Of a stretch of DNA of 64,000 nt, positions 2,481 through 52,577 are shown piece by piece (the stretch's first letter is position 1; every line of letters starts with the position of its first letter). The stretch is taken from positions 21,704-85,703 of the forward strand of contig CAYYLO010000001.1 of assembly GCA_964472675.1 (NCBI GenBank), in the 5' to 3' direction. Source of the DNA: an uncultured Gammaproteobacteria bacterium (GTDB lineage: Bacteria > Patescibacteriota > Microgenomatia > UBA8517 > UBA10165). Below the pieces are notes generated by a model that searched no databases, was not told the DNA's origin, and was given only the letters and a program-made list of their open reading frames with translations. The translations under genes and the position numbers were made by a program.

Positions 2481-2482
2481 CT

Positions 2483-4146: not shown

Positions 4147-4178
4147 AATGAGAATCGTATAACAACAGAAAGATAAAC

Positions 4179-5297: not shown

Positions 5298-5315
5298 ATC
5301 TCCAGGGAACTGACT

Positions 5316-7367: not shown

Positions 7368-8533
7368 CCTACCCAATAGCCTCGAACAAAAAGAGCTGTT
7401 TCTGTTGCCAAAATAACCACAAACATAAGTACTAGACCCCACCTATCACTCCTTTTGGGCTCAGCCAGCATTCTGCCGAATAAAATAAAAAGAGGGAACA
7501 AAACAATTATGTAGCGTGGCAAAGAGCTAAAACTACCTGTTATTGTAGCGAGAAAGAAGCCCAAAACACAGTAGATCAAATATGACAGTCTAAGTTTCTT
7601 TATAAACCCATACACAATCAATGCCAATGCACCTAGAGCAGATAGAAACTCAACCCATATTGTAATATAAATAGGACTGCTTTTATCTACAGTGACAATC
7701 ATCTTAATATATCTCCAAAAGACTTGTGGGAACAAAACAATTTTACCCAACTGCCTTTGCTCGCCATAAGGAGACAGTTCACTATAAAAAGTGAACGGGC
7801 TGCCTGTTGTTTTGTACAGGTAAAACATATATACAAAAAGTCCTGATAAGCTAAAAAATGCTACTGCTGTCGCCAGGAGTATTTTGGCATAAGAAAATCT
7901 TTGAGATCTAAACTGTAACCACCATTCAACCTGTAAAGCAGGCGCTAAAGCAACTCCAAAAACTCTAGTAGCTGAGGCCAATCCTCCCGCTAAACCACTG
8001 CATATCCATTTACCGTTCCTTGCCAATAGAAAACTAAACAGTGCTAAAAATAGAAAAAGCGACCCTGTGTATGTGGAAGCAAAAAAAAATGATGCAGGGA
8101 AAGAAACTAAAGAAACTAAAGACCACCAGGCAACTTTTTCAGAGTAATCAAGCCTTACCAACTTCCAAAGCAAAAAGAGGTCTGCTAAAAAAAATATATT
8201 CGAGACTAACAAACCCGCCCACGCGATTTTTTCAATTCCTCGTGGGGCAATAAAATGCAAAACCAGCGGAAAGAAAGGGAAAAAGGAGTGCTCTAACGCT
8301 TTATAGCCGTTTTGAGCAATTGAAATATAATGTTCCCCATCAAAATTGCTCCACCCCCAAAATAAAGGGTTATCTAAATAATTGTCAATGCTGCCGCCTA
8401 AAAAGTTTTTACTTGCTAGCGGTAAATAAATTACTCCTATAAGGGCAAACACAGTAATCCAAACCCGCCAGGCGAGAAAAAGAAGAAGGATGGAAACAGT
8501 ATTCTTACTTACCCAAGACTTTTTTATATACAT
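7364..8533 (-). CDS. GT-C fold integral membrane glycosyltransferase, PIG-V(GT76)/mannosyltransferase-like
   Basis: Multi-TM protein with first-loop motif FDGEHYISIAQNGY and FPFFPL, reminiscent of PIG-V-type mannosyltransferases; paralogous to the 61637..62839 protein (YDGPYYIVVAKTLY, YPLFPLL). Confidence 0.5.
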   Translation of the reverse strand: MYIKKSWVSKNTVSILLLFLAWRVWITVFALIGVIYLPLASKNFLGGSIDNYLDNPLFWGWSNFDGEHYISIAQNGYKALEHSFFPFFPLVLHFIAPRGIEKIAWAGLLVSNIFFLADLFLLWKLVRLDYSEKVAWWSLVSLVSFPASFFFASTYTGSLFLFLALFSFLLARNGKWICSGLAGGLASATRVFGVALAPALQVEWWLQFRSQRFSYAKILLATAVAFFSLSGLFVYMFYLYKTTGSPFTFYSELSPYGEQRQLGKIVLFPQVFWRYIKMIVTVDKSSPIYITIWVEFLSALGALALIVYGFIKKLRLSYLIYCVLGFFLATITGSFSSLPRYIIVLFPLFILFGRMLAEPKRSDRWGLVLMFVVILATETALFVRGYWVG

Positions 8534-9635
8534 TGATTGTGTCAGAAGCGGTTTTGCTCCAGGAAAACTCTCTTACTTTCTCAAAACCAGCTTGAATCAG
8601 TTCTTTTTTCAGATTAGTATCACTTATAACTTTTTCTAGACCTGCTGCCAACGCTTGCACATTTTTTGGATTCACAAATAGTGCTGCTCCCTCACCTATC
8701 TCAGTCAACGCCTGAGTTTCTCCTGCAACAACGGGAGTACCACAGGCCATCGCCTCCAATACCGGAAATCCAAAACCTTCGTAAAACGAGGGCTGGCAGT
8801 AAACCTCTGCTAAATTATAAATCTTTACCAAGTCTTCATCCGACACAAAGCCCAACATGTGCACCTTGTCTTCCATCTGAAATTCCCCAATCAACCGACG
8901 TATTTCTCTGGCCTCGTCGGTTTCACCTTCGAAGGCTTTACCCACCAGAACAAGATGAGTGGTGAGTGGTAAGTGGTGAGCAACTAGAGAAAATGCACGT
9001 ATAAGTCCTGGAATATTTTTGTTGTAATTGATATCTCCAACGTACAACGCAAAACGCTCCGGTAAACCGTAGCGTTTTATAATTTCCAATTTCCAATTTC
9101 GCGCCGCCGGCAAAGCCTTTGGCGACGCACGGCCAATTTCCAATTTTCGGAGCAGAGGATTGGGGGCAAAGTGCGTGACAAAAATTTTGCCTGCAGGAAT
9201 ATCCAAAAAGCGCACCACATCTTTTTTTGTAGTTTCGGTATTTACAATAACTGCATCCGCCTTTTGCAGCCTTTTCTTTTGACCAGAAAACCTTAATCTT
9301 CCGCGAACCCCTGCAGGAAAATGCTCGGGATAAATCAGAGGGTGAGTATCATGAACCGTAACTACTATTGGAACGTTATTCCTATCAGGCAATGTATTAA
9401 AGAAAAAATCAAAGTACGGATAGTGAATGATATCATGGTGATCTTTCTCCTCCACTAGTTCAACACCCTTTTGTTCTTTTAGCGCCCGCAATAGTTGAAT
9501 GGCGTAGCGGCCCATGCCGCGTACAGCATGACCTGGGATAGTGGGGTTCGAGTCGAGAAAGACTCGAACCAGTGGCGAGTGGTTAGTGGTTGGTGGTTGG
9601 TGTTGCTTTGTATTATCCATAAATGCAATTCCCAT
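8505..9635 (-). CDS. GT4-family glycosyltransferase
   Basis: GMGRYAIQLL (GT4 GIGRY-type N-terminus), LYVGDINYNKNIPGLIRAF, EGFGFPVLEAMACGTPVVAGETQALTEIG. The N-terminal ~40 aa is low-complexity and overlaps a hairpin plus heptamer repeats, so the true start is uncertain. Confidence 0.85.
   Translation of the reverse strand: MGIAFMDNTKQHQPPTTNHSPLVRVFLDSNPTIPGHAVRGMGRYAIQLLRALKEQKGVELVEEKDHHDIIHYPYFDFFFNTLPDRNNVPIVVTVHDTHPLIYPEHFPAGVRGRLRFSGQKKRLQKADAVIVNTETTKKDVVRFLDIPAGKIFVTHFAPNPLLRKLEIGRASPKALPAARNWKLEIIKRYGLPERFALYVGDINYNKNIPGLIRAFSLVAHHLPLTTHLVLVGKAFEGETDEAREIRRLIGEFQMEDKVHMLGFVSDEDLVKIYNLAEVYCQPSFYEGFGFPVLEAMACGTPVVAGETQALTEIGEGAALFVNPKNVQALAAGLEKVISDTNLKKELIQAGFEKVREFSWSKTASDTINVYKKVLGK
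9081..9147. repeat. Two copies of aatttccaattt(c/t) (complement of GGAAATTGGAAATT) flanking a 32-nt GC-rich segment inside the GT4 gene
   Basis: 9081-9100 aatttccaatttccaatttc; 9133-9147 ccaatttccaatttt; between them gcgccgccggcaaagcctttggcgacgcacgg. The protein reads RKLEIGRASPKALPAARNWKLEI. Confidence 0.7.
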
Positions 9636-9648
9636 CGCTCATCACCCT

Positions 9649-10539
9649 TCACTTATCACTAGTGATGTATCTCCAATATGCCCTAGGGAATCTCAAAGCA
9701 GAGAAAAGAGAGAAAATAATTCCCTGATATCCATCTAAAATTCCTTTGTGGCGAATCTGTGTTGTCAAAAACCAACTGGCAGGTTTAACCATCACATAAT
9801 CTACAAACGTAAGCACATCTTTTCCCAAATGTTCTTTCACCATTTGTGCTTTGATCAATTCTATATACCGATTGTTTCTTGAAAGATATCGAGCAAAAGT
9901 AGGGGAATCAACATGATATAGCGGACTTTGTAGCCAACCTACACGCCCGGCGACTTTCATCTGCTCATGAACATCTTTGGCCGGTAAATATGCTTTACCA
10001 TTTTTAATTAGCCTTATTACACCGTCGGGATACACCCCTCCGTATCGAAGGTACTTACCCAAGAAATAATTCAGGCGGGGCAAGAAATATGCAACATATT
10101 CCCCTTTATCAGTCCCTATCTGTCCATCCCTTTTCTCCAAAATTCTCTGGTGCCTTAAGAATAATTTTCTTTCCCGTAAATTCTCTTGATACTTCTCAGC
10201 CTTATCTGAACCCAAACCAATTACATGCTTGATTTCTTTGGCCAAATCCGGGCTGACACGCTCGTCTGCATCCATCTGCAAAATCCACTCACCGCCTGCT
10301 GCCTCAATTGCTTTTTGTTTATTGATATGAAAGTTGGGGTGGTTTTGCGTTTTTATAATTTTTGCTCCAAAACCTTCTGCAATCTCGCGGGTTCTGTCGG
10401 TTGAACTGCCATCCATTATCACAAATTCTCCCGCGATGTCTTTGCAAGACTCAAGACATGCGCCAATGTTTTCTTCCTCATTATATGTTGCCAAAACAAC
10501 TGACAGTTTTATCTTTTGCATATACCTAATTTGCGACAA
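9649..10539 (-). CDS. GT2-family glycosyltransferase
   Basis: KLSVVLATYNEEENI ... MDGSSTDRT ... QMDADE (DXD) with a C-terminal helical extension as in LPS-core GT2 enzymes. Confidence 0.85.
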   Translation of the reverse strand: MSQIRYMQKIKLSVVLATYNEEENIGACLESCKDIAGEFVIMDGSSTDRTREIAEGFGAKIIKTQNHPNFHINKQKAIEAAGGEWILQMDADERVSPDLAKEIKHVIGLGSDKAEKYQENLRERKLFLRHQRILEKRDGQIGTDKGEYVAYFLPRLNYFLGKYLRYGGVYPDGVIRLIKNGKAYLPAKDVHEQMKVAGRVGWLQSPLYHVDSPTFARYLSRNNRYIELIKAQMVKEHLGKDVLTFVDYVMVKPASWFLTTQIRHKGILDGYQGIIFSLFSALRFPRAYWRYITSDK

Positions 10540-12145
10540 CTTTGAAAGCTATACCCCCGCTTGGAAAGTATATCGTTTTTATTGTGTTAGTGCCGTCCGG
10601 CATTTCATTTGAACTTCCCGCAATTAAACCATTGGGGTATTTTGTTCGTGTCTGGTCCCATGGAGAAACCTCCTGAAAATAATACTTGTCAAAATGTTCA
10701 ACTGTCGAAAATCCGAATATGTCCCGGGGAGTTAACGTGTGTTCTTTTTGGAATTTTGCGGGAGGATATTTGGAATAAAAAAGGAAAAGTATATATGGCT
10801 GATCGTAACGGTTTGTAACGACAACATTTTGATATTTACCTTCATTTTGTTTTACAAAACTTACCAGTTCTTTTACCCCATACTGAGAAGAATAGTCGTA
10901 TGTTTTTGCCATATGCAGGTAATACTCATGGAGATATCGGGAAAAATCCCATAGCATAAATAGTACGATCGCAAACACCCCCAATTTCCCTAACTTTCCC
11001 CATTTCCCCAACACCCCGAAAACCTTTACCGCACCATATCCGCTAATTATCACCAACGGAACAATCATATTCTCCGCCCGCAAAGCATGTGGCGATTGAA
11101 AAGTTAAGGCCGCAGCAACCGGCGCAACTACTAGCCACAGGAGAACAGGCAGCCACCCTTTTGGACTTTTAAAAATTACCCCCATGCCTACAACGAGAAA
11201 GACCAGATCCAACAAATACATCTGACCGAATTCCGGTACTTTATTCCTTTGGATTTCGTCCCCGTTAACAAATAAGAAGTCTCCTGAGAAGTGTTTGCCG
11301 TAATTTTGAGCAAAGGCTAAGCCGTAATTCACGACTTTGTTGTGCAGCAACTTCCCGACTAAACTTTCAGTAACGCCGTGCTCCCCTCTTTGTTGATTCA
11401 CCTTATTGTACGGGCCAACGTCTGCAAACACCCCCACACCCGATGCCCTGGAAATTCCCGCTGGCCCAGCGAGGTCTTTGGCTAGTGGTACTAATAATAG
11501 TAGTCCTACTATTCCAACAGCCAACGAATTTCTCAATTTAGCTCTCCCTAGTAATTCCCTGCGGTAGTAAATAAGTAATCCGCAAACCAATAGAGGCACC
11601 ACAATTCGTGCCGCGTGATATGTATAAAGCGAAGCTACAAGCGCCAACACTGAAACCCAAAGATATTTAGAATTTCTAGTTCCTTTTACAAATGACCAAA
11701 CACCAAGAGTAATAAAGAATGTCGCCGCGTTTACTTCCCAACCGCCGCGCGAAAAGTGTATATGCCAAGGAGAGATGGCTAGCATCAAAGATACTAGAAC
11801 CCCCATTTTTTTGTCTCTGAACAATTCTAAACACAACAAATACACAACAAACACAGTTGCCACACCCAAAGCAGCACCTGGAATTCTCACCGCCCATTCA
11901 TTTAAACCAATAGTTGCCACAAATGGCGCAACGATATAAAAATAAAGTCCTGGTTTGTAATCGTTAAACGATTGAAAATGAATTGGCCAAAAGTTACCAT
12001 GCTCGTCTTTCCCTGTTTGCAACAAAGAATAAGCGTTATAACCAATGGCCGCTTCGTCAGCGTTTAACGCAGGCAAATTGTTCAGTTGATTGAAGCGCAA
12101 AAAAGTCGCCAGAATTATGATAAGAACTATTAAGTATTTACCCAT
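10526..12145 (-). CDS. PMT/GT39-family phospholipid-carrier-dependent glycosyltransferase (GT-C)
   Basis: Loop-1 motif LNADEAAIGYNAYSLLQTGKDEHGNFWPIHFQSFNDYKPGLYFY, about 11 TM helices and a C-terminal soluble domain. Start chosen at MGKYLIV, 1 nt after the upstream stop. Confidence 0.85.
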   Translation of the reverse strand: MGKYLIVLIIILATFLRFNQLNNLPALNADEAAIGYNAYSLLQTGKDEHGNFWPIHFQSFNDYKPGLYFYIVAPFVATIGLNEWAVRIPGAALGVATVFVVYLLCLELFRDKKMGVLVSLMLAISPWHIHFSRGGWEVNAATFFITLGVWSFVKGTRNSKYLWVSVLALVASLYTYHAARIVVPLLVCGLLIYYRRELLGRAKLRNSLAVGIVGLLLLVPLAKDLAGPAGISRASGVGVFADVGPYNKVNQQRGEHGVTESLVGKLLHNKVVNYGLAFAQNYGKHFSGDFLFVNGDEIQRNKVPEFGQMYLLDLVFLVVGMGVIFKSPKGWLPVLLWLVVAPVAAALTFQSPHALRAENMIVPLVIISGYGAVKVFGVLGKWGKLGKLGVFAIVLFMLWDFSRYLHEYYLHMAKTYDYSSQYGVKELVSFVKQNEGKYQNVVVTNRYDQPYILFLFYSKYPPAKFQKEHTLTPRDIFGFSTVEHFDKYYFQEVSPWDQTRTKYPNGLIAGSSNEMPDGTNTIKTIYFPSGGIAFKVVAN

Positions 12146-12146
12146 T

Positions 12147-13820
12147 TTACTTCCAGGAAAGTAGTTCAAAAGCCACACTGTCGTCCGGTCTAGTTATTTC
12201 CTTGTAAATTCCATCCGGTTGTTTTTGGGAAAGTTCGGCAAAAGGAGGATGTTCAGGATCAAAAACTATCAACGTGCCTTTATTGTGTAAGTCCCCTGCG
12301 GTGGCATCCCTAAAGGTAATATTATCTAGCCCGGAAACCAACCCTACATCACCAAATTGCCCTTCCTGGTAGGTTTTTTTGGAAACTTGCTGATATTTTG
12401 CTGGATCATATTTTTGGAAAAAGAGGAAGAAAATGTACGGCTGGTTATAACTTTGTTGAAAAACAATCTGCTTGTAATCATTTTGTTCTTTAGAAGTCTT
12501 CATAATTGTTTGTTTATACCCGTATTGCCAACCTTTAGCACTGCGCAAAGGATAATGTACCCAATATTGATCAAGAAAATACACGTAATTAATTGCGTAA
12601 ATAGCAAGGTAACAAAGCAGCAAGATTGCAAATTTGCGGCCACGAATTGCTTCAAATACAAATGCCACTCCGCATCCACTAAGTAAAGTTAGTGGAATGA
12701 CAAGATTCAGACTTCGCACACCTTGTATAGTATCTCGAGATAAAGCAGCAGGCAGCGGAGCCAGCAAAAGCCAGAGAAGTACAAACCACTTTGCATTTCT
12801 GTTTTGACTTCTTGCCAAATATAATAATCCTAAAATCAGCAACGGCAAGTCCGCCAATAACAAAACGCCAACGTCAGGCGCTCCGTGTCTAGCATTGGCC
12901 CAATCTCCTTCGAAGAACAAGAATCTTGCCGAGTAGTAATTCGTCCACCGGTACAAAACCCCTCGTAAATTGTTCAATGGCTCAGAATGGTAGAGGATAT
13001 ATTGCCAAGAATTTATACCAACTCCTTCCTGGTTTAAAATGCCAGCCACATATTCAACAGGCCTTCTATAGGAAAAAAAACTAAAGACTGCTAACCTTCC
13101 TGCTTGTCCTTGAAAAACGCTTAAGATTATTGGCAATACCAACACAAACCCCAGAATTAAAACTTGTGCTATCTGTTTTCTGGTAAATCTGCCAAGTCGT
13201 TTGCGATACGCCAACAAGAGAGCTGCCACAACCAACGCAGTACTCAATTTGGCCCCCTGATATGTCCAAAGAGTGAGTGCAAAGAAAATAACTGACAGGT
13301 AAATACTTCTGCCCCCGTCTTTAACAAACCGCAAAAATAAATAGATTCCTGCTAAAGTTAACGTCAAAGAAAGATTGGCTTCCCATGCACCTCTGGAAAA
13401 ATGAACATGCCAAGGAGATATTGCAAGCATCAAGCTTGCTAAAATTTTCAATTTTTCGTTCTTGAATAATTCGCCTACTGAACAATAAACAAGTCCTACA
13501 GCGGCAATACCTGCAATAGCACTGGGAAGTCGCACGGACCACTCTGCCAAGCCCAATATAGCTACGAATGGTACTGTTAGGTAGACATAAAGTCCCGGTT
13601 TCCAATCTCCGAATGACTTAAAAATCAGTGGCAGAAGTTCGCCATACTCATCTCTGCCTGTCTTCAAAATTGAATATGCGTTATACCCCAAAGCCGCCTC
13701 GTCACTGGTTAAATGTGGCGGATTAATATCCAGTTGCCAAAAACGCAACAAGGCAGCAACCAACAAGATTGTGACGAGTAACAGGTGATGAGTTATTGGT
13801 GTAACGAGTTTTCTAATCAT
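12147..13820 (-). CDS. PMT/GT39-family glycosyltransferase (GT-C)
   Basis: LTSDEAALGYNAYSILKTGRDEYGELLPLIFKSFGDWKPGLYVY. ATGA start/stop overlap with the upstream gene at 13817-13820. Confidence 0.85.
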   Translation of the reverse strand: MIRKLVTPITHHLLLVTILLVAALLRFWQLDINPPHLTSDEAALGYNAYSILKTGRDEYGELLPLIFKSFGDWKPGLYVYLTVPFVAILGLAEWSVRLPSAIAGIAAVGLVYCSVGELFKNEKLKILASLMLAISPWHVHFSRGAWEANLSLTLTLAGIYLFLRFVKDGGRSIYLSVIFFALTLWTYQGAKLSTALVVAALLLAYRKRLGRFTRKQIAQVLILGFVLVLPIILSVFQGQAGRLAVFSFFSYRRPVEYVAGILNQEGVGINSWQYILYHSEPLNNLRGVLYRWTNYYSARFLFFEGDWANARHGAPDVGVLLLADLPLLILGLLYLARSQNRNAKWFVLLWLLLAPLPAALSRDTIQGVRSLNLVIPLTLLSGCGVAFVFEAIRGRKFAILLLCYLAIYAINYVYFLDQYWVHYPLRSAKGWQYGYKQTIMKTSKEQNDYKQIVFQQSYNQPYIFFLFFQKYDPAKYQQVSKKTYQEGQFGDVGLVSGLDNITFRDATAGDLHNKGTLIVFDPEHPPFAELSQKQPDGIYKEITRPDDSVAFELLSWK

Positions 13821-16800
13821 TGCTTCTCAAGAATGATAAAAGCCGGATCTCCATTCAAGAAGCGGATAGTTTTCAGTTGCTTAAAATCGGGAGGAAAATT
13901 CCCTGGACTGGTGACGAGAAGAGTTTTACCATCTATCGGTATTTTTAGCCCACTCTCCACCCGCCACTCTCCACCCGCCACTTTTGGCATATCCCAATCG
14001 TTAACAAAATAGAACTTATCAAACCGGTCTATCCAAAACCAATCAGACTGGGCAAACCGCACAAGGTTGGTGTCTTTTTGGTAAGCGGCTGGATCCCAGG
14101 GCCAGTAGAAAAGCAAAAACTCATGCGGTTCGCCATATTTTTTAGTAATAATAAATCGGTCATATTCTCCATAACAAGCTTTTATGTAATCCGCGATATT
14201 TTGATATCCATATTGCCAAGACCAAGAGTAGTTTCTGCTGTAAACAAAGAAGTATTCATACATGTACTTACCCATATTGACAAATAACAATGTGGCGTAA
14301 GCTGTTAATGCGAATGCTTTCCACCTGCGGCTAATTTTTGTTGCTAGCCATATTACCCCAATTGCCGAAATAAGTTGAGGAATAGGCAACATAGAAGCAG
14401 AACGCAAAACTGCAAATTTTTCGTTAGTAATACTTGCAGGAATCGGTGCCAAGAGCAACCACAACAAAACTAACTGATACGCCTTCTCTTTTTTAGTCGC
14501 CCTCCATGCAACCAGTATCAGGCCAATGTAGAAAAAGGGTAAGTTAACCGGATAAAGGAGTCCCCAACCCGGAACGCTAAATTGATATTGCGTACCGCCT
14601 TTAAAAAATAAAAACTGCGGTGAAAAGTAATCCGCATAGTTTTTGGTAAACTTCTCAACAAAGTAAACAGGACGATTGTAGAAAAGACGAGCTAACCCTG
14701 GAGGTAATTTACTTTCCTCGCGCGCATTCACAATGCGGTTTATTGCACCCTGGTCAACCAAAAAAACCCAATTGGCACGTGCCCTTGCCTCAGAATTAGA
14801 CAAGATAAACGGAAGCGGCACAAAAAAAACAGCTAAAATGACAAGGGAAATGATCCCAAGTAAACGTTTGTGTTTGAAAAAATTAAAAAGTTCACGCCGG
14901 TAGATTATAAAAAGGGCAAGCAAAAAAAATGGAGTGAAGATTCTGGTTGTGTGGTAAGAAAAAAGAGTTAGCCCAAAAGCCAAAAACGAAAGCGGAAATT
15001 TGCCATTTACAAAAAGAGCAGCCGCTGTAGTTAAGAAAAACACCGATAAATTTGATTGTAAAACAAACCGCGAAGGGAAAAAGAGCCATGGGTCAATTGC
15101 CACAAAAAATGTGCCAAACAGACTTATGTCTTTCCTTTTAGTAACTCCAAAAAAAACAAAGTAGGATGAAATTATCGTTAAAGTTCCCAAGAGAACATGC
15201 GGCAAGCGGATGGCAAACGCATTAAGACCAAGAAACTTGATAAAAGGTATGGTCAAATAGAGGTTGAGAGGAAGGGGGTAGTCTCCATAGGCTCTAAAAT
15301 TTGTGATCGGAAAGAATTCCCCCCACTCGTCCTGGCCGGTTTTTAAAATAGAGTAAGCATTCCATCCATGACTTACTTCATCCCAGTTTAGACTTGGCGG
15401 TATTTGAGTAATCCCTGCAAACCTTAAAACAAACCCCAACAAGACAATAACTATTAATAACCAATATTTCTTATACACAGTTGAAGAGATCTTTGATCTT
15501 TTATGCCACATATTTTTCTTTACGAAAAACAATAATCCGATCGCTGCCGCAACACTAATAGCATTACCCCAAGTTCTTGCTGGAGTATCAGTAAATCTTA
15601 ATATTGCTTCTTTTTCACCGCTCAGAGCGGGAAGTTGTGCTGTTATTAATCCCAAATCTCCCGAAGGAACAACCGAGTACTCTTTTGATTCTGTAAACAA
15701 ATGCCAACCAGGAAAATAAACTATCGGAAACTGAACTGTGGCAGGTGAAGTAAGTGTTAACTTGTATTTTACCTCATTGCTCTTCTTTAAGACTTGTGCA
15801 CCAAAAAACCTGCCGTCTGCCGAAGGTTGCGAAGGAGCCGGACTTGCCGGAAGTTGGGAAGCTGTTGCAGGCCAATAATCTCCTAAAGATGACGCGGTCT
15901 GTTCTTCCCATTTTTTCCCTGCAAACTGGTCTTTATCTGTAATGTTGTACCACATATCCTCCTTAAAAAAAGAAAAGTTCACAAGGATCACGATGACAAT
16001 AGCAGTTGCACTAATCCACAGAGGAAATCGCCTGGAAACGAACACTATAGCTCCAGAAGCCAGCGCAAAACTGAAGGTTGCGATAGAAAGCCAACGCCAC
16101 GGAAATTGAAAATATGACGTAAATTTGAGGCTTTCCCAAATAGGTGTCGACTTATTGTGTGTTAGAAACAAAGCCAGCCAACCAATTAAAACTAACACCA
16201 AAATGTCTTTAAGTTTTTCTTTTTGGCGAGTTATTAACAGGCATACCAGTGCTATCAAAGGCAATACCCACTGCACTTGCCCCACAGATAAACTTAAATC
16301 ATCTTGAGGACCAAAAAGTGAAGCGCCATACCCCCAAAATCTTGAAATTAAAAGTTGGTTCAATGTGGCAAAATGTGCCCTAAAATCAAAATAACCAATG
16401 GTGATCGATTCCAAGTTTACATATTTGGACTCCGACACCACAGGTAGTAGATAAAATGCACTAAGTGCTAACGCCAAAACCCCTCCACCAACTAGCCAAG
16501 GAATCTTACTGTAGTTTTTCCTTTCCACAATTTTACATCCCAACCATACTCCCAAGAAAAGCCCAAACATTAGAAGCGACAGGTTGTGTGTCAGCAACAG
16601 CAGAGCAAGGCTGACACTAAACCACAAAAGACTTTTGATCTTGCCCCCATGAAGAAAGTTATAAGCAAAGAGCGCAATAAAAGGGAAAAGTGCAAAAGCA
16701 AAAGCTTCGGGCAAAGCTGCCCGAACCCAAACATCAAGAGCTCGATATGGCGCGTATACATAAACCATGCTGCTCACCAATGCCGCATATTTATACGAAG

Positions 16801-17173
16801 TTGAAGAGGAATTCTGATTCTTCTGATTTCCCCAAACCCTTAAAGAGAGCAAATACATACCTAAAGCAGATCCAATAATCGAGAGAATAAACACTACCTT
16901 GGTGGAATCAATAATTTGCATTCCCAGCAAGTGGAATACTTCGCCTACTGCGTAAGGTATTTGCGTGTAAAAGTTAAACAAAGGTTCACCATACCCAAAA
17001 CCAGCGTCGGGAGCCCAGCGACAAGGGATTTGGAAGTCCTTTATACAGCGATCAAACTCAAACAAACGGAATAAATGCGGGTCCTGCATGGAATATATCC
17101 CTGGCCGGAGCATCCTAAAAAAAGCGGGGATTGTGAGAACAACAACAAACAACAAAAAGAAATATTTTCTCAT
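13817..17173 (-). CDS. Fusion protein: N-terminal YfhO-like/PTPS-related GT-C module (about aa 1-554) plus C-terminal PMT/GT39 module (about aa 555-1118)
   Basis: N-half is colinear with the stand-alone 52578..54464 protein (DFQIPCRW...PLFNFY...; C-terminal FPGWHLF ~ FPGWKVF). C-half from MWHKRSK (ATG at 15511) carries LNWDEVSHGWNAYSILKTGQDEWGEFFPI and the full PMT architecture. One uninterrupted 3357-nt ORF. Confidence 0.8.
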   Translation of the reverse strand: MRKYFFLLFVVVLTIPAFFRMLRPGIYSMQDPHLFRLFEFDRCIKDFQIPCRWAPDAGFGYGEPLFNFYTQIPYAVGEVFHLLGMQIIDSTKVVFILSIIGSALGMYLLSLRVWGNQKNQNSSSTSYKYAALVSSMVYVYAPYRALDVWVRAALPEAFAFALFPFIALFAYNFLHGGKIKSLLWFSVSLALLLLTHNLSLLMFGLFLGVWLGCKIVERKNYSKIPWLVGGGVLALALSAFYLLPVVSESKYVNLESITIGYFDFRAHFATLNQLLISRFWGYGASLFGPQDDLSLSVGQVQWVLPLIALVCLLITRQKEKLKDILVLVLIGWLALFLTHNKSTPIWESLKFTSYFQFPWRWLSIATFSFALASGAIVFVSRRFPLWISATAIVIVILVNFSFFKEDMWYNITDKDQFAGKKWEEQTASSLGDYWPATASQLPASPAPSQPSADGRFFGAQVLKKSNEVKYKLTLTSPATVQFPIVYFPGWHLFTESKEYSVVPSGDLGLITAQLPALSGEKEAILRFTDTPARTWGNAISVAAAIGLLFFVKKNMWHKRSKISSTVYKKYWLLIVIVLLGFVLRFAGITQIPPSLNWDEVSHGWNAYSILKTGQDEWGEFFPITNFRAYGDYPLPLNLYLTIPFIKFLGLNAFAIRLPHVLLGTLTIISSYFVFFGVTKRKDISLFGTFFVAIDPWLFFPSRFVLQSNLSVFFLTTAAALFVNGKFPLSFLAFGLTLFSYHTTRIFTPFFLLALFIIYRRELFNFFKHKRLLGIISLVILAVFFVPLPFILSNSEARARANWVFLVDQGAINRIVNAREESKLPPGLARLFYNRPVYFVEKFTKNYADYFSPQFLFFKGGTQYQFSVPGWGLLYPVNLPFFYIGLILVAWRATKKEKAYQLVLLWLLLAPIPASITNEKFAVLRSASMLPIPQLISAIGVIWLATKISRRWKAFALTAYATLLFVNMGKYMYEYFFVYSRNYSWSWQYGYQNIADYIKACYGEYDRFIITKKYGEPHEFLLFYWPWDPAAYQKDTNLVRFAQSDWFWIDRFDKFYFVNDWDMPKVAGGEWRVESGLKIPIDGKTLLVTSPGNFPPDFKQLKTIRFLNGDPAFIILEKQ
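13937..13980. repeat. Tandem 14-mer (cactctccacccgc x2 plus a partial unit) within the PMT-module coding sequence
   Basis: ccactctccacccgccactctccacccgccact; encodes AGGEWRVESG. Confidence 0.6.
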
Positions 17174-18840
17174 TGTGTACTAACTAACCAAATAGCGTCC
17201 TGGCCATTGGGAAATTTGATCTTCTCGACAACATTTGCATTTGAAGAAAACTCGTTAGATTTTCCTATCAAAAGCGTATCTTTTTTGCCAAAAGCCTTAG
17301 AGTCAATACTTGTAAAATTATACTTACCCAAACTGTAATCTCCCAATTGGTCTACAAAGGAACGCCCCTCTGTTTTGTATCTCAGCCAATCTTGAGCTTG
17401 TTTTTGGTAATCTGCCGGATCCCATTTCTTGTAAAAGGCCATATAGATTTGCGGCTCTGATAAAGAGCGGCTAAAGACAACTTGGGAATATCTACTGTCA
17501 ATTGCTGAAGTTAGTTCAACGGCTTGTTTTCTACCATAAAGCATGGCCTGGGCCTGATCCCGCGGCGCGTGGTAATAATAGTCTTCCAAAAAGAATCCTA
17601 AACTCACCAACAATATAGCAATATAACTATATAGCAGTAATTTTTTTGATACTCGCCATTTCTGAGAAATTAAATCCAGCAAAACTAAGGCACCATACGC
17701 AGATAATATTTGTAAGGCCGGCATCATTACCGCCACTCGATTCCCCGCATACCCTGGGCCCTTTGTTAAAGCAGCGGGTATTGGCGCAATCAAAATCCAA
17801 ATTATTAACAATTTAAGGGGTCCCCTTGCCGAGCCTGCAAGGGGACCCCTTGCAAAGATCGACCACAATGAAACAAGTATAAAAGGCAGTTCAACCAGGT
17901 AAAGAACTCCTCTGCCGGGAATCATGCCGTAAGTCCACTCGCCTGCCCCTTGAGTAAACAAAAACTGGGGCGAAAAATAGGAGAGATATCTTTGAGAAAA
18001 TTCCTTAAACACATAAACTAGTTTGTTCGAGAAAATTCTTTCTATAACGTCTGGCACTCCGGCCAAAACTGCCTCATACCGCCTGTCGGCAAGGTTCGCC
18101 CAGTTGTCTGTAGGATTAAAAATTGCAATATCCGATCCGCGGCCTCCCGCCCCAGAAAAAAGCATCGTATAAGCGGCAACGGCAATAAAGACAGCCAACA
18201 CAGCAATAGCTATTCCATACTTCCTTCCCGCCTTAAAGTGCAATAGCAAAGTGCGGCGATCCCACAATAATAAAAGGATAATAAGTGGAGTAAATAATCT
18301 TGCAGAGTGGTAACTAAAGAGATTCAAGCCAAAAGCCAAGGCAGCTACTGCCATCCAACGGGGTTTTTCCAAACCTTTGTAAAACGCCCATACTCCAAGC
18401 GGCATAAAAAATGTCGTCAGGTTTGCCTCGAAAGCGCCGCGGGAAAGTGAAATGTGCCATGGCGATACAGCCAGCAGCCAAGCTGCTAAAATTTCCAATT
18501 TCGATCCGCCGAAGAGCCCTTTAACCATCAAATAAGTGGCGAGTATAGCTAGTGTTCCAAAAACAGCACTAGGGAGTCTCACAGCAAATTCATTAAGTCC
18601 AAATATTGCTACCGAGGGAATTGCTAGATAGGTATATAGCGGAAGTTTATAATCCCCAAAAGACTGCAAAGTTAGAGGAAGAAAGCTACCCCACTGATCT
18701 TTGCCGGTTTTCAAGATTGAGTACGCGTCATAACCAAAAGAGGCCTCATCAGGGGTAAAACCTGCAGGGTGGGAGACAAGGCCAATAAAACGCAAAACAA
18801 AAGCCATCAAAATTATTCCAACCAAGACCACACGGCGCAT
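17170..18840 (-). CDS. PMT/GT39-family glycosyltransferase (GT-C)
   Basis: FTPDEASFGYDAYSILKTGKDQWGSFLPLTLQSFGDYKLPLYTY. ATGA overlap with the downstream gene start at 17170-17173. Contains the palindromic in-frame insert ARGPLAGSARGPL. Confidence 0.85.
   Translation of the reverse strand: MRRVVLVGIILMAFVLRFIGLVSHPAGFTPDEASFGYDAYSILKTGKDQWGSFLPLTLQSFGDYKLPLYTYLAIPSVAIFGLNEFAVRLPSAVFGTLAILATYLMVKGLFGGSKLEILAAWLLAVSPWHISLSRGAFEANLTTFFMPLGVWAFYKGLEKPRWMAVAALAFGLNLFSYHSARLFTPLIILLLLWDRRTLLLHFKAGRKYGIAIAVLAVFIAVAAYTMLFSGAGGRGSDIAIFNPTDNWANLADRRYEAVLAGVPDVIERIFSNKLVYVFKEFSQRYLSYFSPQFLFTQGAGEWTYGMIPGRGVLYLVELPFILVSLWSIFARGPLAGSARGPLKLLIIWILIAPIPAALTKGPGYAGNRVAVMMPALQILSAYGALVLLDLISQKWRVSKKLLLYSYIAILLVSLGFFLEDYYYHAPRDQAQAMLYGRKQAVELTSAIDSRYSQVVFSRSLSEPQIYMAFYKKWDPADYQKQAQDWLRYKTEGRSFVDQLGDYSLGKYNFTSIDSKAFGKKDTLLIGKSNEFSSNANVVEKIKFPNGQDAIWLVSTQ
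17815..17851. repeat. Perfect 15-bp inverted repeat with 7-nt spacer inside a PMT coding sequence
   Basis: aaggggtccccttgc-cgagcct-gcaaggggacccctt; encodes ARGPLAGSARGPL, an ~10-aa insertion relative to the paralogs (e.g. KSPKGW in 10526..12145). Confidence 0.8.
18488..18503. repeat. Additional copy of the GGAAATTGGAAATT motif (complement strand) inside PMT gene 17170..18840
   Basis: aaaatttccaatttcg, encoding SKLEIL; the same 14-mer as at 9081, 9133 and 55974. Confidence 0.65.
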
Positions 18841-18843
18841 AAA

Positions 18844-20106
18844 TTAATTGTAGCCCTTTTTACGTTTAATCCCAAGCAATAGAACACTAAACACCAAGAG
18901 ATTTACAACAGCTATAAAATTAGGCAGCCATGAAACTTTGTAAATAATTTCCAGTGGTGCAAAAGACGCGGCATTGAACAAGTGATAAATATTCAAAAGA
19001 TTTGAAACAGATAAAACTGCAACAGCCAAAGTTGTCAGCGGAACCAGGCCGGATAGTAATGTGGCTATCGGGAAAAATGGATAAAGGTATCTTTCGTGAA
19101 TTCTGGTCATAAACAAGAATGTAACTAATGCAGACAGAGCCAGGCCATAGAGAACATTTCTGTTTGATAAATTGTGTTTCAACCACAAACATAATCCGCC
19201 TATTACAACTGAGGAAACCAAAAAGCCCAATAATCTTGCGCTTGTTGAAAAATAAATTGTGCTATCTAAAGTTTTACCATTATCAATCAACCACCAAAAG
19301 TTAAATGCGTTTGCACTCAAAGAGCCTATTTCGCCTGACAAGATTCTGTTCTTGTATAAGTTTAAAAACCATATCGGAAAATCAACCTGGGGATGAAACC
19401 AAATTGAAATAAAGATTGTGGTTAAAACCGCGGCTAAAATGCTTTTTAACCACTGGCTACGATTAAATTTTTTAGTCAGCGCAACTACAAGCAGTATGGG
19501 AATAAAAATTGCCAACGACCCTTTAAAGAGTAAAGAAAGTATAAATAAAAATGAGAAGACTGTTAATTGACTACTCAAAAGTGCCACTATTGCACTTAGT
19601 CCTAAAAGATTAACTATACTATCTGTCTGACCCCAAATACTTGAGTTAAACCACACAACGGGATTCAAAACCCAAAATGTAGACATTAACAGCGCAGTTT
19701 TTGGCTTCTTCAACCTAATGAAGTATTGATATAAAACAGTCGCTATTCCCAAATCTGCAAAAATACTTGGAAGTTTTATCAACAACTTAAGTCCGCGGTC
19801 TTCCCAAAACCAAACAAAGGCCGAAGGAAAAGCGGGGATATGGTTGTTAAACCACCAAGCGAGTCGCTCGACTGTATTCCATATAATTTGTAAGCCAGCA
19901 AAAAGCAAAATGGTTAAAGGAGGTTGGTTTGGGGCAGAGTATGGCCAATTTTTGAGGTCATAAAAACCACTTAGTCCATGAGAAACAGCAATTTGCCCCC
20001 ACGAAATGTTGTTGTTCAAATCGCCATGATACGCGCTAAAAACAAAATAAAGCCGGAGAATTAAGCCCGTTAAAAGCAGAAAATAGAATTTATGTAAAAA
20101 CTTCAC
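18844..20106 (-). CDS. Integral membrane GT-C-like protein (DUF2029/GT87-like), family uncertain
   Basis: 420 aa, about 11 TM helices, loop motifs YHGDLNNNISWG and SSIWGQTDSIVN. GTG start overlapping the upstream stop (GTGA). Confidence 0.4.
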   Translation of the reverse strand: MKFLHKFYFLLLTGLILRLYFVFSAYHGDLNNNISWGQIAVSHGLSGFYDLKNWPYSAPNQPPLTILLFAGLQIIWNTVERLAWWFNNHIPAFPSAFVWFWEDRGLKLLIKLPSIFADLGIATVLYQYFIRLKKPKTALLMSTFWVLNPVVWFNSSIWGQTDSIVNLLGLSAIVALLSSQLTVFSFLFILSLLFKGSLAIFIPILLVVALTKKFNRSQWLKSILAAVLTTIFISIWFHPQVDFPIWFLNLYKNRILSGEIGSLSANAFNFWWLIDNGKTLDSTIYFSTSARLLGFLVSSVVIGGLCLWLKHNLSNRNVLYGLALSALVTFLFMTRIHERYLYPFFPIATLLSGLVPLTTLAVAVLSVSNLLNIYHLFNAASFAPLEIIYKVSWLPNFIAVVNLLVFSVLLLGIKRKKGYN

Positions 20107-21839
20107 TTTGTATTTTTGGTTAACAGGAAGAAAGCCGGTTCGCCTGATGGATATGCGACCGCTTTAACCATTTTTAGATCTTTTGGTAAACGCTCCGGTT
20201 CTTGTATTAAATTCACATTTACTTCCTTGGCAGTGGCTACATACAAAGTTTTGTCCGGTAAAACCTGGCCTAATGTATAAAGGTCAACATTGGGGGAGCC
20301 AAAGTAATATTTATCCAGCTTAGAAATCGCGCCAAAATTAGGTAGAGTTTCCCGTGGTAAATCTAAACCCCCCGTACCTCTTGGCTGGTAGAGTTCATGG
20401 AATCTTTGGGGGGAAAATTGAGACCAGCCTAGGAAAAAGATCATTGCCGGTTCTCCAGCATTACTAACAATTACACGATCATAAGTATTACTTTCTTCTA
20501 CCGCTGACCCAACAGCATCTTCAAATCCTGCATGCCACCACCGTTCCGAATCCCATGGGTAATGGATCCAATATAGATGTTGGAAAAATACGAAACTTGC
20601 CAATAATGCCAACACATACGAACACACAAACAGGCTGCGCACACGAGCTGAGAGCGAATTAAATGTGCTCCACACGCCATATCCCACCAAAAAGATTAAA
20701 GGTGGAAGAAGAAGAAAGAGACGTGTGGCGTGATTCCCGCCGTCACGAGTCAAAGCCGCTGGGATTGGCGCCACAATGACCCAGAAGAACACAAAAATTT
20801 TTATCTTCCTGTCTACCTTGGAAAAAATGAAGTATGCAAACCCCAACACCAGGAAAATGGCTTCAAATTTGTAAAACTCGCCAATTCTATTTGGTGAGTG
20901 GCGAGGATTCGGATCACCTTGGATAAAAAGAAAATCTGTTGAAAACGCACGTAAATAATTCTGGCCTACAAAGGTGGCAAGCCATGTCGCCTTATTGTGG
21001 AACAACTTGTCAACTATAGTCGGAGCTATCCCTACTTGAGCTACAGGATTGCGCATTTTGGCATCCCTTAACCGTGCAAATCCAATTTCAGGAGACATTG
21101 TGGGATCTGAAAAGACGGAAATGTAGTTAAAACGCTGGGCGCCTCCACCAAAAACCGTACTAAAAGTAATCGGTGCGGCAACTATCGCAAAACACAAAGC
21201 GGCAATCGCAAGCTGTTTCCGCGGCAGTTTAAGAAGATCACGCCACCAAATCAAAATTAATGCACTCATGGTCAGAGGTAAAAAGAGTTTGGCTGTGCTA
21301 TATACCCAAGGAGTAAGCGCAAGCGATACGCCAGCCAAATAAAGCCATCTAGGATTTTTCAAACCACGCAGGAAGAAATAAATTCCTGAAACATAAAAGA
21401 AGAAGAGCTGAGTTACTTCAAAGCCCGCACGGGAATATTGTATGTGCCATGGAGAAATGGAAAGGAGGAAGGCAGCCAAAAGGGCAAACCCTTGCTTGCC
21501 GGTAATTTGCCGCACTAAAAGGTAAAATACCCACACCCCCAAAATCCCAAAAATTGCTGCAGGGAGTCTGACTCCCCAAGGCGAGACTCCAAAGATTGCC
21601 ACAGTTGGTACAGCAGAATATAAATATAGCGGTGTTCTCCATTCAGCCAAAGACTGAAAATGGATAGGTAAAAAGTTGCCGGAGTAATCACGGCCAGTTT
21701 TCAAGATAGAATAGGCATGATAACCCACATCCAGCTCATCTCCAAATAAAGAAACCGGCACGCGGTCAAGCTGCCACAGGCGCAATAAGCTAGCTATTGC
21801 TAAAATACCTGCCAATAACAACTTTGAATGTTTATGCAT
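20103..21839 (-). CDS. PMT/GT39-family glycosyltransferase (GT-C)
   Basis: LFGDELDVGYHAYSILKTGRDYSGNFLPIHFQSLAEWRTPLYLY plus the conserved IVAPIPAALT-type helix. Confidence 0.85.
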   Translation of the reverse strand: MHKHSKLLLAGILAIASLLRLWQLDRVPVSLFGDELDVGYHAYSILKTGRDYSGNFLPIHFQSLAEWRTPLYLYSAVPTVAIFGVSPWGVRLPAAIFGILGVWVFYLLVRQITGKQGFALLAAFLLSISPWHIQYSRAGFEVTQLFFFYVSGIYFFLRGLKNPRWLYLAGVSLALTPWVYSTAKLFLPLTMSALILIWWRDLLKLPRKQLAIAALCFAIVAAPITFSTVFGGGAQRFNYISVFSDPTMSPEIGFARLRDAKMRNPVAQVGIAPTIVDKLFHNKATWLATFVGQNYLRAFSTDFLFIQGDPNPRHSPNRIGEFYKFEAIFLVLGFAYFIFSKVDRKIKIFVFFWVIVAPIPAALTRDGGNHATRLFLLLPPLIFLVGYGVWSTFNSLSARVRSLFVCSYVLALLASFVFFQHLYWIHYPWDSERWWHAGFEDAVGSAVEESNTYDRVIVSNAGEPAMIFFLGWSQFSPQRFHELYQPRGTGGLDLPRETLPNFGAISKLDKYYFGSPNVDLYTLGQVLPDKTLYVATAKEVNVNLIQEPERLPKDLKMVKAVAYPSGEPAFFLLTKNTK

Positions 21840-21841
21840 AG

Positions 21842-25137: not shown

Positions 25138-25176
25138 TTGCTTTTTAAAACCAACTAACGTAGGTATGTTTGTCTC

Positions 25177-28251: not shown

Positions 28252-28258
28252 ATGAGTA

Positions 28259-30446: not shown

Positions 30447-30469
30447 TAGTTCCTCAAGCCTAAGTATAT

Positions 30470-33944: not shown

Positions 33945-33975
33945 ATATTAAATATCAAAAACACATATAAAAAAT

Positions 33976-34356: not shown

Positions 34357-34357
34357 T

Positions 34358-35233: not shown

Positions 35234-35236
35234 TTT

Positions 35237-36145: not shown

Positions 36146-36155
36146 TGCGTGTATG

Positions 36156-37115: not shown

Positions 37116-37135
37116 CCTGAGCGTTCAGAATGACG

Positions 37136-42328: not shown

Positions 42329-42343
42329 ATTAAAGATTGTATC

Positions 42344-45752: not shown

Positions 45753-45859
45753 AATTCGCTCACATTAATATCTACTGGCAATCTCCTAAAGCCTTTCAAT
45801 AGTCACCATTTTAAAGAAATCATCGAGTGAAAATTTCCTGATATAATCAGTAAGGACAC

Positions 45860-51315: not shown

Positions 51316-51319
51316 GCCC

Positions 51320-52447: not shown

Positions 52448-52577
52448 TTAACAAATGTAACCATTACCTTGAAGATGTGTATAAGCTTTAGGTAAGAAAA
52501 AGAAGGCAACTTAATTACCTCTTGTCTTGTTCTTGCTTTTCTCCTACACTCATTATTACTCCAGCCGTTTAGTCTAT

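What the first reader, a model, noticed from the sequence alone, without database searches (positions are those of the whole stretch)
13817..17173. Single 1118-aa ORF fusing a complete YfhO-like GT-C module to a complete PMT/GT39 module
Residues ~1-554 are colinear end-to-end with the stand-alone YfhO-like protein at 52578..54464, including its C-terminal FPGW...beta-sandwich. Residues 555-1118 (from MWHKRSK, ATG at 15511) form a full PMT-family protein with the DE loop motif. Two different lipid-linked-sugar-dependent glycosyltransferase catalytic cores in one polypeptide is unusual. It could couple two successive glycosyl transfers onto one substrate. Alternatively it is a recent gene fusion by loss of a stop/start in the tightly coupled array, since neighbours are joined by ATGA overlaps.
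Basis: partly seen in the sequence, partly recalled or inferred. Interest (0 to 1): 0.7.

Follow-up and report, generated by a model that had tools for sequence, protein, structure and literature searches.

The report
Two membrane glycosyltransferase genes fused
One 1118-residue gene in a Patescibacteria sugar-coating gene island joins two different membrane glycosyltransferases that are separate, overlapping genes in every close relative; a one-base frame change explains the join, so it is a young fusion or a sequencing slip, not a new enzyme type.

Summary
On the minus strand, 17173 to 13817 is one uninterrupted 1118-aa ORF. Residues 1-554 are a complete YfhO/PTPS_related-like GT-C module. 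Residues 555-1118 are a complete PMT/ArnT-like GT-C module. Both keep their conserved residues, both show dN/dS of about 0.11, and the AlphaFold2 model is confident (pLDDT 88.8).

The fusion is not conserved among close relatives. The nearest relative is Ca. Blackburnbacteria RIFCSPHIGHO2_01_FULL_43_15b (75-80% aa identity, syntenic). There, as in 30 metagenome loci, the two halves are separate genes, nearly always overlapping out of frame by 4-37 nt.

The window differs at the junction by one base fewer in an A-run (A5 vs A6). That puts the downstream ATG in frame. The old stop codon is still present out of frame at the same place.

A distant lineage (P0002, L040; 51% identical to each other) carries a stable fusion of the same gene pair, with no internal ATG. 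The pair therefore fused at least twice, and fusion is tolerated.

Best reading: a real, lineage-specific fusion of a conserved, translationally coupled GT-C pair (about 0.7). A homopolymer miscall cannot be excluded without reads (about 0.17). Interest is modest.

The parts
13817..17173 (-). Fused ORF of 1118 aa. ATG at 17173 overlaps the stop of the upstream gene (ATGA). The stop at 13817..13819 overlaps the start of the downstream gene.
   Evidence: an identical protein, P0001, is in the NCBI-derived collection
15512..17173 (-). N module, residues 1-554: YfhO/PTPS_related-like GT-C glycosyltransferase. It has a multi-pass TM core, an extracytoplasmic beta-sandwich and a terminal TM helix.
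   Evidence: 34% id, E 4e-96 to 52578..54464. 74% id to the stand-alone L002 7947..9599. 49 of 50 columns conserved at >=90% are retained. AF2 pLDDT is mostly >90.
17081..17083 (-). Codon of D31, in the first extracytoplasmic loop (SMQD31PH). It is the candidate catalytic acid of the N module.
   Evidence: conserved in >=90% of 32 N-type homologues; its role is inferred by analogy with other GT-C enzymes
15593..15808 (-). Beta-sandwich domain of the N module (residues 456-527, includes FPGW 487-490).
   Evidence: AF2 strands E456-527; aligned with the paralogue's YfhO C-terminal match
15494..15583 (-). Last TM helix of the N module (residues 531-560). It returns the chain to the cytoplasm.
   Evidence: AF2 helix H531-560; followed by a K/R-rich segment (positive-inside rule, inference)
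15464..15520 (-). Junction/linker K552-Y570 (KKNMWHKRSKISSTVYKKY): 8 K/R, no acidic residue, predicted cytoplasmic. It is the only long low-confidence stretch at the module boundary.
   Evidence: pLDDT <50 at residues 559-568
15513..15517 (-). A5 run immediately before the internal ATG. The split relative L002 has A6 here. One extra A would restore two genes (N ending ...VKKKYVA*).
15509..15511 (-). Internal ATG (M555), homologous to the start codon of the stand-alone C gene in relatives.
15501..15503 (-). Out-of-frame TAA, at the same position as the stop codon of the stand-alone N gene in L002/L007.
   Evidence: window frame f1 reads ...KYVA*; L002 reads ...KHVA*
15470..15499 (-). 30-nt insertion relative to L002 (RSKISSTVYK). 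It lengthens the cytoplasmic tail before TM1 of the C module.
13820..15511 (-). C module, residues 555-1118: PMT/ArnT-like (GT39/GT83-like) GT-C glycosyltransferase with a C-terminal alpha/beta domain.
   Evidence: Pfam PMT 27.2 bits > 22.7. 80% id to the stand-alone L002 9589..11271. The 120 best hits listed in the 5.8-billion-protein collection are stand-alone proteins at 52-79% id. Conserved residues are retained.
15377..15382 (-). Codons of D598-E599 (NWDEVSHG), the loop-1 DE motif of the PMT-like module.
   Evidence: conserved in >=93% of 15 C-type homologues
52578..54464 (-). Stand-alone paralogue of the N module (628 aa) elsewhere in the same island.
17170..18840 (-). Upstream neighbour: stand-alone PMT_2 GT-C (556 aa). 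It is the closest in-window paralogue of the C module and has a 4-nt overlap with the fused ORF.
12147..13820 (-). Downstream neighbour: stand-alone PMT_2 GT-C (557 aa), with a 4-nt overlap with the fused ORF.

Best explanation
The ORF is a real, lineage-specific fusion of a conserved two-gene cassette. The cassette is a YfhO/PTPS_related-like GT-C gene followed directly by a PMT/ArnT-like GT-C gene.

In relatives, the stop of the first gene and the start of the second overlap out of frame by a few bases, which implies translational coupling. The overlap lies in A-rich sequence that encodes Lys-rich cytoplasmic tails. In this genome a net one-base loss in that A-run (A6 to A5) moved the downstream ATG into the upstream frame. 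Translation therefore reads through into the second gene.

The N module ends with a TM helix that returns the chain to the cytoplasm, and the C module begins in the cytoplasm. The join is thus only a 19-residue, strongly basic cytoplasmic loop, and neither module's topology changes.

The product is a two-module, multi-pass membrane protein. Both active-site loops (D31; D598-E599) face outside. Each module most likely still does what the separate enzymes did: transfer a sugar from a polyprenyl-phosphate-sugar donor to an extracytoplasmic acceptor in the surface-glycan or glycoprotein pathway encoded by the surrounding island. The two modules are now made in fixed 1:1 ratio and held together.

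Shown: the ORF, the completeness and conservation of both modules, the split state of relatives, the one-base difference, and the existence of an independent stable fusion.

Inferred: topology, donor type, retained activity, and that the sequence is error-free at the A-run.
For: The ORF is uninterrupted.

Both halves are colinear with stand-alone proteins.

L002/L007 (Ca. Blackburnbacteria, 74-80% id, syntenic over 11 genes) and L008 have two genes overlapping by 11 and 8 nt. The window has A5 where L002 has A6, and keeps the TAA out of frame.

30 of 62 informative metagenome loci have a separate N-like ORF directly upstream of the C orthologue. 29 of 32 examined junctions overlap by 4-37 nt. 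20 of 30 carry an A-run of 5 or more bases nearby.

In NJ trees of both modules the window is sister to the split L002, then to the split L008 and L011.

dN/dS against L002 is 0.11 (N) and 0.12 (C), like the neighbouring genes at 0.09-0.19.

49 of 50 highly conserved N-module columns and all but five highly conserved C-module columns (four conservative changes plus F1097 where the consensus is W) are retained, including D31 and D598-E599.

The AF2 model has pLDDT 88.8, and at the module boundary only residues 559-568 are disordered. All significant PDB fold matches are GT-C enzymes.

Fusion of this same pair is viable. P0002 (L001) and L040/P0254 are 51% identical full-length fusions with no internal ATG, in a syntenic array.

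All 11 genes shared with L002 are colinear, with no other frame break, which argues against an error-prone assembly.
Against: The fused allele is seen once only (P0001: 1 member, 1 contig). No independent assembly of this organism was found.

The whole difference from the split state is the length of a homopolymer. That is the classic site of sequencing and assembly error. Adding one A would reproduce the relatives' arrangement exactly.

No reads or coverage are available. No experiment shows that either module is active, and the donors and acceptors are unknown.
Confidence: 0.7

Rival explanations
1. Assembly or sequencing artefact. The true genome has A6 at 15513..15517 and two overlapping genes, exactly as in Ca. 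Blackburnbacteria L002. The 1118-aa ORF comes from a homopolymer length miscall, or from a consensus picked from a minor variant.
For: One added A gives N ending ...VKKKYVA* with the TAA at the same position as L002's ...VKKKHVA*, and the C gene starting at the same ATG. All close relatives are split. The fused protein is a singleton.
Against: The 64-kb window shows no other broken gene. All 11 genes shared with L002 are colinear end to end, so the assembly is not generally indel-prone. A5/A6 is a short homopolymer for short-read data. Real fusions of this very pair exist elsewhere, so the fused state is biologically plausible.
Confidence: 0.17
2. Selected, functionally meaningful fusion. The two GT-C enzymes form an obligate complex that carries out two successive extracytoplasmic glycosyl transfers on one acceptor. 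The fusion was fixed because it improves channelling or assembly. It overlaps with the best explanation and differs only in claiming adaptive value.
For: The N-then-C adjacency is conserved, with translational coupling, in 30 of 62 loci. The N and C trees are congruent. There are two independent fusions, one maintained to 51% divergence. GT-C enzymes are known to work as hetero-dimers (Pmt1-Pmt2 6p25 and EmbA-EmbB 7bvc appear among the fold hits). Two YfhO-type GT-Cs act in one pathway in the S. mutans Pgf system (PMC12041528).
Against: Nearly all lineages keep the genes separate, so fusion is not required. In 31 of 62 loci the C orthologue has a different upstream neighbour. No inter-module confidence measure (PAE) was available, and pTM is only 0.69. 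No biochemical data exist.
Confidence: 0.25
3. Gene decay. The frame change is a recent deleterious lesion, and the fused product is misfolded or one module is inactive. On this view it is a pseudogene in the making within a highly redundant family of at least 17 GT-C genes.
For: There is large paralogue redundancy in the window. The change is a frameshift-type event.
Against: No stop codon and no loss of conserved residues in either half. dN/dS is about 0.11, though this mostly reflects history before the fusion. The topology is compatible. Stable fusions exist in another lineage.
Confidence: 0.05

Closest known systems
YfhO-family GT-C glycosyltransferases of the three-component systems (CsbB/GtcA/YfhO in B. 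subtilis and S. aureus; GtlA/GtlB in Listeria; PgtC2, PgfM1/PgfM2 in streptococci)
   Same: The N module shares their layout: a multi-pass GT-C core, an extracytoplasmic beta-sandwich and a terminal TM helix. The paralogue and orthologue carry weak or precomputed PF09586 matches. The island also encodes small GT2 enzymes that best resemble PgfS and polyprenyl-phosphate-sugar synthases, all below cut-off, and Wzx-type flippases. Function of the family is taken from PMC7389260 and PMC12041528.
   Different: The N module itself has no YfhO Pfam hit. Its best hit is PF10131 PTPS_related, below cut-off. There is no NCBIfam match. The organism is a Patescibacterium, its acceptor is unknown, and here the module is covalently joined to a second GT-C.
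PMT / ArnT-type GT-C enzymes (GT39 protein O-mannosyltransferases; GT83 ArnT)
   Same: The C module passes the Pfam PMT cut-off, has the loop-1 DE motif (D598-E599) and a predicted GT-C fold. ArnT 5f15 and Pmt4 9i5k are among the fold hits. Database names for its orthologues are 'glycosyltransferase family 39' and 'phospholipid carrier-dependent glycosyltransferase'.
   Different: No MIR domain was detected. There is no sequence-level match to any solved structure. It has a distinct C-terminal alpha/beta domain (residues ~1006-1117). Sugar and acceptor are unknown.
Hetero-oligomeric GT-C complexes (yeast Pmt1-Pmt2, PDB 6p25; mycobacterial EmbA-EmbB, PDB 7bvc)
   Same: Two GT-C catalytic cores sit side by side in one membrane assembly. 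The fused protein would mimic such a dimer covalently.
   Different: Those are separate polypeptides of the same family. Here two different GT-C families are in one chain, and physical contact between the modules is not shown.
Other multi-module relatives found here: GT2+N (about 800 aa, e.g. P0007, P0015, L002 4308..6722), N+N (P0004, P0005 = MCL5785031.1, P0253, P0307), GT2+N+N (P0003), and the stable N+C fusion (P0002, L040/P0254)
   Same: They share the same N-type module and come from the same Patescibacteria gene arrays. Fusion to neighbouring glycosyltransferase genes is recurrent.
   Different: Only P0002 and L040/P0254 share the N+PMT-like hetero-architecture. Those have a short linker with no internal ATG and are only 39-40% identical to the window protein.

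Membership tests
GT-C superfamily (Pfam clan CL0111), both modules | Predicted GT-C fold: multi-pass TM core resembling solved GT-C enzymes | tested here: met
   AF2 pLDDT 88.8. All 26 Foldseek PDB matches with E<=0.001 are GT-C enzymes (AglB, ArnT, STT3, PglB, Emb, Pmt4, ALG9/12). The tool does not report which half aligned, so the assignment per module also relies.
GT-C superfamily, both modules | Conserved acidic residue(s) in the first extracytoplasmic loop | tested here: met
   D31 is conserved in >=90% of 32 N-type homologues. D598-E599 is conserved in >=93% of 15 C-type homologues. A catalytic role is inferred, not shown.
GT-C superfamily, both modules | Uses a polyprenyl-phosphate-linked sugar donor on the outer face of the membrane | not testable with these tools
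   Context only: small GT2 genes resembling PgfS, ArnC and dolichyl-P-hexose transferases, all far below NCBIfam cut-offs, and flippase genes.
PTPS_related (PF10131) / YfhO (PF09586), N module | Score at or above the Pfam gathering threshold | tested here: not met
   PF10131 scores 21.4 bits against a cut-off of 26.4, and there is no PF09586 hit. Homologues do pass: P0004 has 96 bits for PF10131, and the L002 orthologue P0393 carries a precomputed PF09586 hit. The module is therefore a divergent relative, not a threshold-level member.
PTPS_related / YfhO, N module | Family architecture: TM core, then extracytoplasmic beta-sandwich (FPGW region), then C-terminal TM helix | tested here: met
   AF2 strands 456-527 and helix 531-560. 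Colinear with the paralogue, whose residues 504-570 match YfhO profile positions 756-820.
PMT (PF02366, GT39-type), C module | Score at or above the Pfam gathering threshold | tested here: met
   27.2 bits against a cut-off of 22.7, residues 575-791.
PMT (GT39), C module | Luminal MIR domains of eukaryotic Pmt1/2/4-type enzymes | tested here: not met
   No MIR family among the Pfam hits. The C module is therefore filed as PMT/ArnT-like bacterial GT-C, not as a canonical PMT.
PMT (GT39), C module | Protein O-mannosyltransferase activity | not testable with these tools
   No biochemical data.
Stable bifunctional N+PMT-like fusion protein (the P0002/L040 type) | Fusion conserved among relatives of the same lineage | tested here: not met
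   The nearest relatives L002/L007, L008, L011, L013 and L019 are split. In the trees the window is nested among split sequences.
Stable bifunctional N+PMT-like fusion protein (the P0002/L040 type) | Seamless junction: no retained internal start codon and no relic stop | tested here: not met
   The window keeps the ATG (M555) and the out-of-frame TAA. P0002 and L040 have neither.

The most novel reading that the evidence does not exclude
The YfhO-like and PMT-like GT-C genes form a conserved, co-inherited, translationally coupled cassette across Microgenomates. Its products would work as an obligate hetero-complex with two different lipid-linked-sugar active sites. The two independent fusions (this window; P0002/L040) would then be 'Rosetta stone' evidence for a hetero-family GT-C dimer, a type not yet described, that performs two consecutive extracytoplasmic glycosyl transfers.
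Probability: 0.3. Interest if true: 0.55.

Novelty: new variant of a known kind. Interest (0 to 1): 0.3.

Why it matters
As a single event it matters little. It is a one-base frame change at an overlapping stop/start, seen in one contig.

It is useful for what it points to. A YfhO-like gene directly followed by a PMT-like gene is a widespread, co-evolving cassette in Microgenomates. That cassette has been welded into one polypeptide at least twice, once stably. This gives a testable prediction that two different GT-C families cooperate physically in building the cell surface of these uncultivated, reduced-genome bacteria.

It also shows how poly-A tracts that encode Lys-rich cytoplasmic tails make such junctions prone to fusion and fission.

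For annotation, it is a reminder to check homopolymer-dependent fusions against reads before calling them novel architectures.

Tried and rejected
1. Alignment A2 placed the N-type homologues on the C half. It was discarded. A3, with fewer C homologues, was checked and used.

2. The ~1050-aa Chloroflexi hits carrying both PF10131 and PF13231 looked like double GT-C proteins. They are not: the PMT_2 hit overlaps the PTPS_related region.

3. The look-up of encoding contigs found no record for P0001. The source genome, sequencing platform and coverage therefore stay unknown.

4. Sequence searches of PDB with each half gave only chance-level hits.

5. NCBIfam gave no match for the fused protein.

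6. The afdb50 fold library was unavailable.

8. Literature searches for CPR/Patescibacteria with GT39 or GT-C found nothing, and none of the papers listed for tandem or two-GT-C proteins concerned such a fusion; only the titles and abstract starts were looked at, and of 148 papers only 12 were listed. PF10131 appears in one paper, as a GT-C clan member of unknown function.

9. Two of the homologous-protein searches failed a positive control. The C-half and junction queries did not return P0001 itself. They cannot exclude other long fused proteins. The rarity claim rests on the exhaustive HMMER search and the DNA-level scans.

10. I considered reading the GT2 domain fused to N homologues as a CsbB-like polyprenyl-phosphate-sugar synthase. 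NCBIfam shows only generic GT2 similarity, far below cut-offs, so this is not claimed.

11. A simple hydropathy scan missed the terminal TM helix of the N module. The AF2 helices were used instead.

12. No Shine-Dalgarno-like motif precedes the internal ATG or any gene start in the array. Internal initiation can be neither supported nor excluded.
Full report
**Observation**

The window holds one uninterrupted ORF on the minus strand, from ATG at 17173 to the stop at 13819..13817. It encodes 1118 aa. The finding gave no strand.

Residues 23-547 align colinearly with residues 27-593 of the stand-alone 628-aa protein at 52578..54464(-), at 34% identity and E 4e-96.

Residues 555-1118 begin at MWHKRSK (ATG 15511..15509). 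They are colinear over their full length with six stand-alone paralogues in the window. The best matches are 17170..18840 at 298 bits and 10526..12178 at 258 bits.

Pfam places the C half in PMT (27.2 bits, cut-off 22.7). The N half scores only weakly for PTPS_related (21.4 bits, cut-off 26.4). The paralogue adds a weak YfhO C-terminal match. 'YfhO-like' is a resemblance, not a threshold-level membership.

**Context**

The 64-kb window (41% G+C) is one large glycosylation island:
- at least 17 GT-C-type genes
- many GT2 and GT4 genes
- two Wzx-type flippases
- a GDP-mannose 4,6-dehydratase

Genes in the array are joined by 4-nt overlaps or gaps of 2-3 nt. No Shine-Dalgarno-like motif precedes any of them.

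**Are both modules intact?**

A checked alignment (A3) shows that the window protein keeps 49 of 50 columns conserved at >=90% among 32 N-type homologues. These include D31 in the first outside loop and the QFPWR and FPGW motifs. It also keeps all but five of the columns conserved at >=93% among 15 C-type homologues, including D598-E599. Four of the five are conservative changes; the fifth is F1097 where the consensus is W.

Against the nearest relative, dN/dS is 0.11 (N) and 0.12 (C). Neighbouring genes give 0.09-0.19, and dS is about 0.9-1.6.

AlphaFold2 on A3 gives mean pLDDT 88.8 and pTM 0.69. At the module boundary only residues 559-568 fall below pLDDT 50. The N module ends with a beta-sandwich (456-527) and a TM helix (531-560). 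The C module starts with a TM helix (565-585).

All Foldseek PDB matches with E<=0.001 are GT-C enzymes.

The linker KKNMWHKRSKISSTVYKKY has 8 K/R and no acidic residue. It fits a cytoplasmic loop, so the fusion needs no change of topology in either module. This is an inference from the positive-inside rule.

**Is the fusion shared by relatives?**

It is not shared by any close relative. The only close genome in the species-representative collection is Ca. Blackburnbacteria RIFCSPHIGHO2_01_FULL_43_15b (L002). It is syntenic over 11 genes at 70-86% aa identity.

In L002 the two halves are separate genes. 7947..9599 encodes 550 aa, 74% identical to window residues 7-554. 9589..11271 encodes 560 aa, 80% identical to residues 568-1117. 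In NCBI these are adjacent locus tags A2782_02890 and A2782_02895. L007/L010 from JGI are the same sequence. L008 (69% identical C orthologue) is also split.

A metagenome scan with a junction-spanning query returned 80 loci. Of the 62 with enough upstream DNA:
- 30 have a separate N-like ORF directly upstream of the C orthologue
- 1 is fused (L040)
- 17 have a PMT-like gene upstream
- 14 have something else upstream

In 29 of 32 split junctions examined, the genes overlap by 4-37 nt out of frame.

**The junction**

L002 reads GTG AAG AAA AAA CAT GTG GCT TAA (...VKKKHVA*). The C gene's ATG lies 11 nt before the end, in another frame.

The window reads GTA AAG AAA AAT ATG TGG CAT AAA. It has one base fewer in the A-run (A5 vs A6), which puts the ATG in frame. 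The TAA is still there, out of frame, at the same place. One extra A would give ...VKKKYVA*.

The window also has a 30-nt insertion (RSKISSTVYK) after MWHK.

20 of 30 split junctions carry an A-run of 5 or more bases within 30 nt of the C start. The junction is therefore generally prone to slippage.

**A second, independent fusion**

P0002 (1060 aa, Logan SRR11050433, locus L001) and L040/P0254 (JGI Ga0172379) are full-length N+C fusions. They are 51% identical to each other and 39-40% identical to the window protein. Their linkers are short, with no internal ATG and no relic stop. L001 is syntenic: fusion, then PMT_2, PMT, GT2, GT4.

NJ trees of the two modules agree with each other. The window is sister to the split L002, then to the split L008 and L011. 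The L001/L040 fusions form a separate basal clade together with L080. In L080 the two ORFs are in the same frame, separated only by TAA plus one codon.

The same gene pair has therefore fused at least twice, once stably.

**How rare is the architecture?**

An exhaustive HMMER search of 1.84 billion representative proteins found junction-spanning matches only in P0002 and P0254. P0253 and P0307 are N+N tandems.

Other fusions of the N-type module are common among its closest homologues. GT2+N proteins of about 800 aa account for roughly 25 of the best 35 hits. N+N occurs in P0004 and P0005, and GT2+N+N in P0003, whose 90% cluster also holds split members.

**Interpretation**

The most likely account is a real, lineage-specific fusion. 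It arose by a one-base frame change inside the overlapping stop/start of a conserved, translationally coupled GT-C gene pair. The product is a two-module membrane protein in which both modules keep working as before.

The donor type (polyprenyl-phosphate-sugar) and the outside-facing activity follow from what is established for YfhO-type and PMT/ArnT-type GT-C enzymes (PMC7389260, PMC12041528). PF10131 belongs to the GT-C clan (PMC7801869). None of this was tested here.

The main rival is a homopolymer miscall. It cannot be excluded, because the fused allele is a singleton and no reads are available. It is made less likely by two points. There is no other frame break in 64 kb, including 11 genes colinear with L002. 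The same fusion is demonstrably viable elsewhere.

**Limits**

- Two protein-database searches failed to return the query's own entry. They are not used as evidence of absence.
- The fold search does not say which half matched which structure.
- NJ trees carry no support values.
- The metagenome scan used peptide patterns from both sides of the junction. This may enrich for loci that contain both genes.

**Verdict**

The first, coupled successive transfers, remains a reasonable but untested hypothesis.

This is a new variant of a known kind and of modest interest. Its value lies in flagging a conserved YfhO-like/PMT-like cassette whose recurrent fusion predicts physical cooperation between two GT-C families.

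Noticed in passing
L080 1809..5102 (Ga0164311_10005959): The N-like and C-like ORFs are in the same frame, separated only by TAA plus one codon before the ATG. L080 is sister to the stably fused L001/L040 clade in both module trees. It is either a pre-fusion state or a fusion re-split by a nonsense change.
   Followed up: partly
P0003 cluster: A 1387-aa GT2+N+N triple fusion shares its 90%-identity cluster with 565- and 574-aa members on one 7881-nt contig. Fusion/fission polymorphism therefore also occurs between tandem N-type genes.
   Followed up: no
P0368 (JGI, 346 aa, contig 1096 nt): An MFS-transporter-like N-terminus (PF07690/PF00083) is joined to a segment 81% identical to window residues 567-732. 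On such a short contig it may be a chimeric assembly.
   Followed up: no
window 45860..47426 (+) and 49084..49962 (+): A DNA methylase (N6_N4_Mtase) plus an MvaI/BcnI-family restriction endonuclease, and a nearby PD-(D/E)XK/Cas4-like nuclease, lie on the opposite strand. They interrupt the otherwise uniform minus-strand glycosylation array. The flanking ~1.1 kb (44766..45859) has no ORF of 150 aa or more and no tRNA.
   Followed up: partly
window 1..64000: There is an extreme paralogue expansion in 64 kb: at least 17 GT-C-type genes (PMT, PMT_2, YfhO, PTPS_related, PIG-V-like) with many GT2/GT4 genes, two flippases and a GDP-mannose dehydratase. L002 carries an extra GT2+N gene (804 aa) and a 412-aa gene between the orthologues of 17170..18840 and the N gene. 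Both are absent at that position in the window.
   Followed up: partly
window 15470..15499 (-): The 30-nt insertion relative to L002 (AGATCAAAGATCTCTTCAACTGTGTATAAG) starts with a near-repeat, AGATC-AA-AGATC. It gives the longest cytoplasmic N-tail among the C orthologues examined. Whether it arose after the fusion is unknown.
   Followed up: no
The search for homologous proteins: The query's own database entry (P0001, 1118 aa) was returned by the full-length search. It was not returned by the C-half or junction-spanning searches. This suggests candidate retrieval can miss long multi-module proteins.
   Followed up: partly
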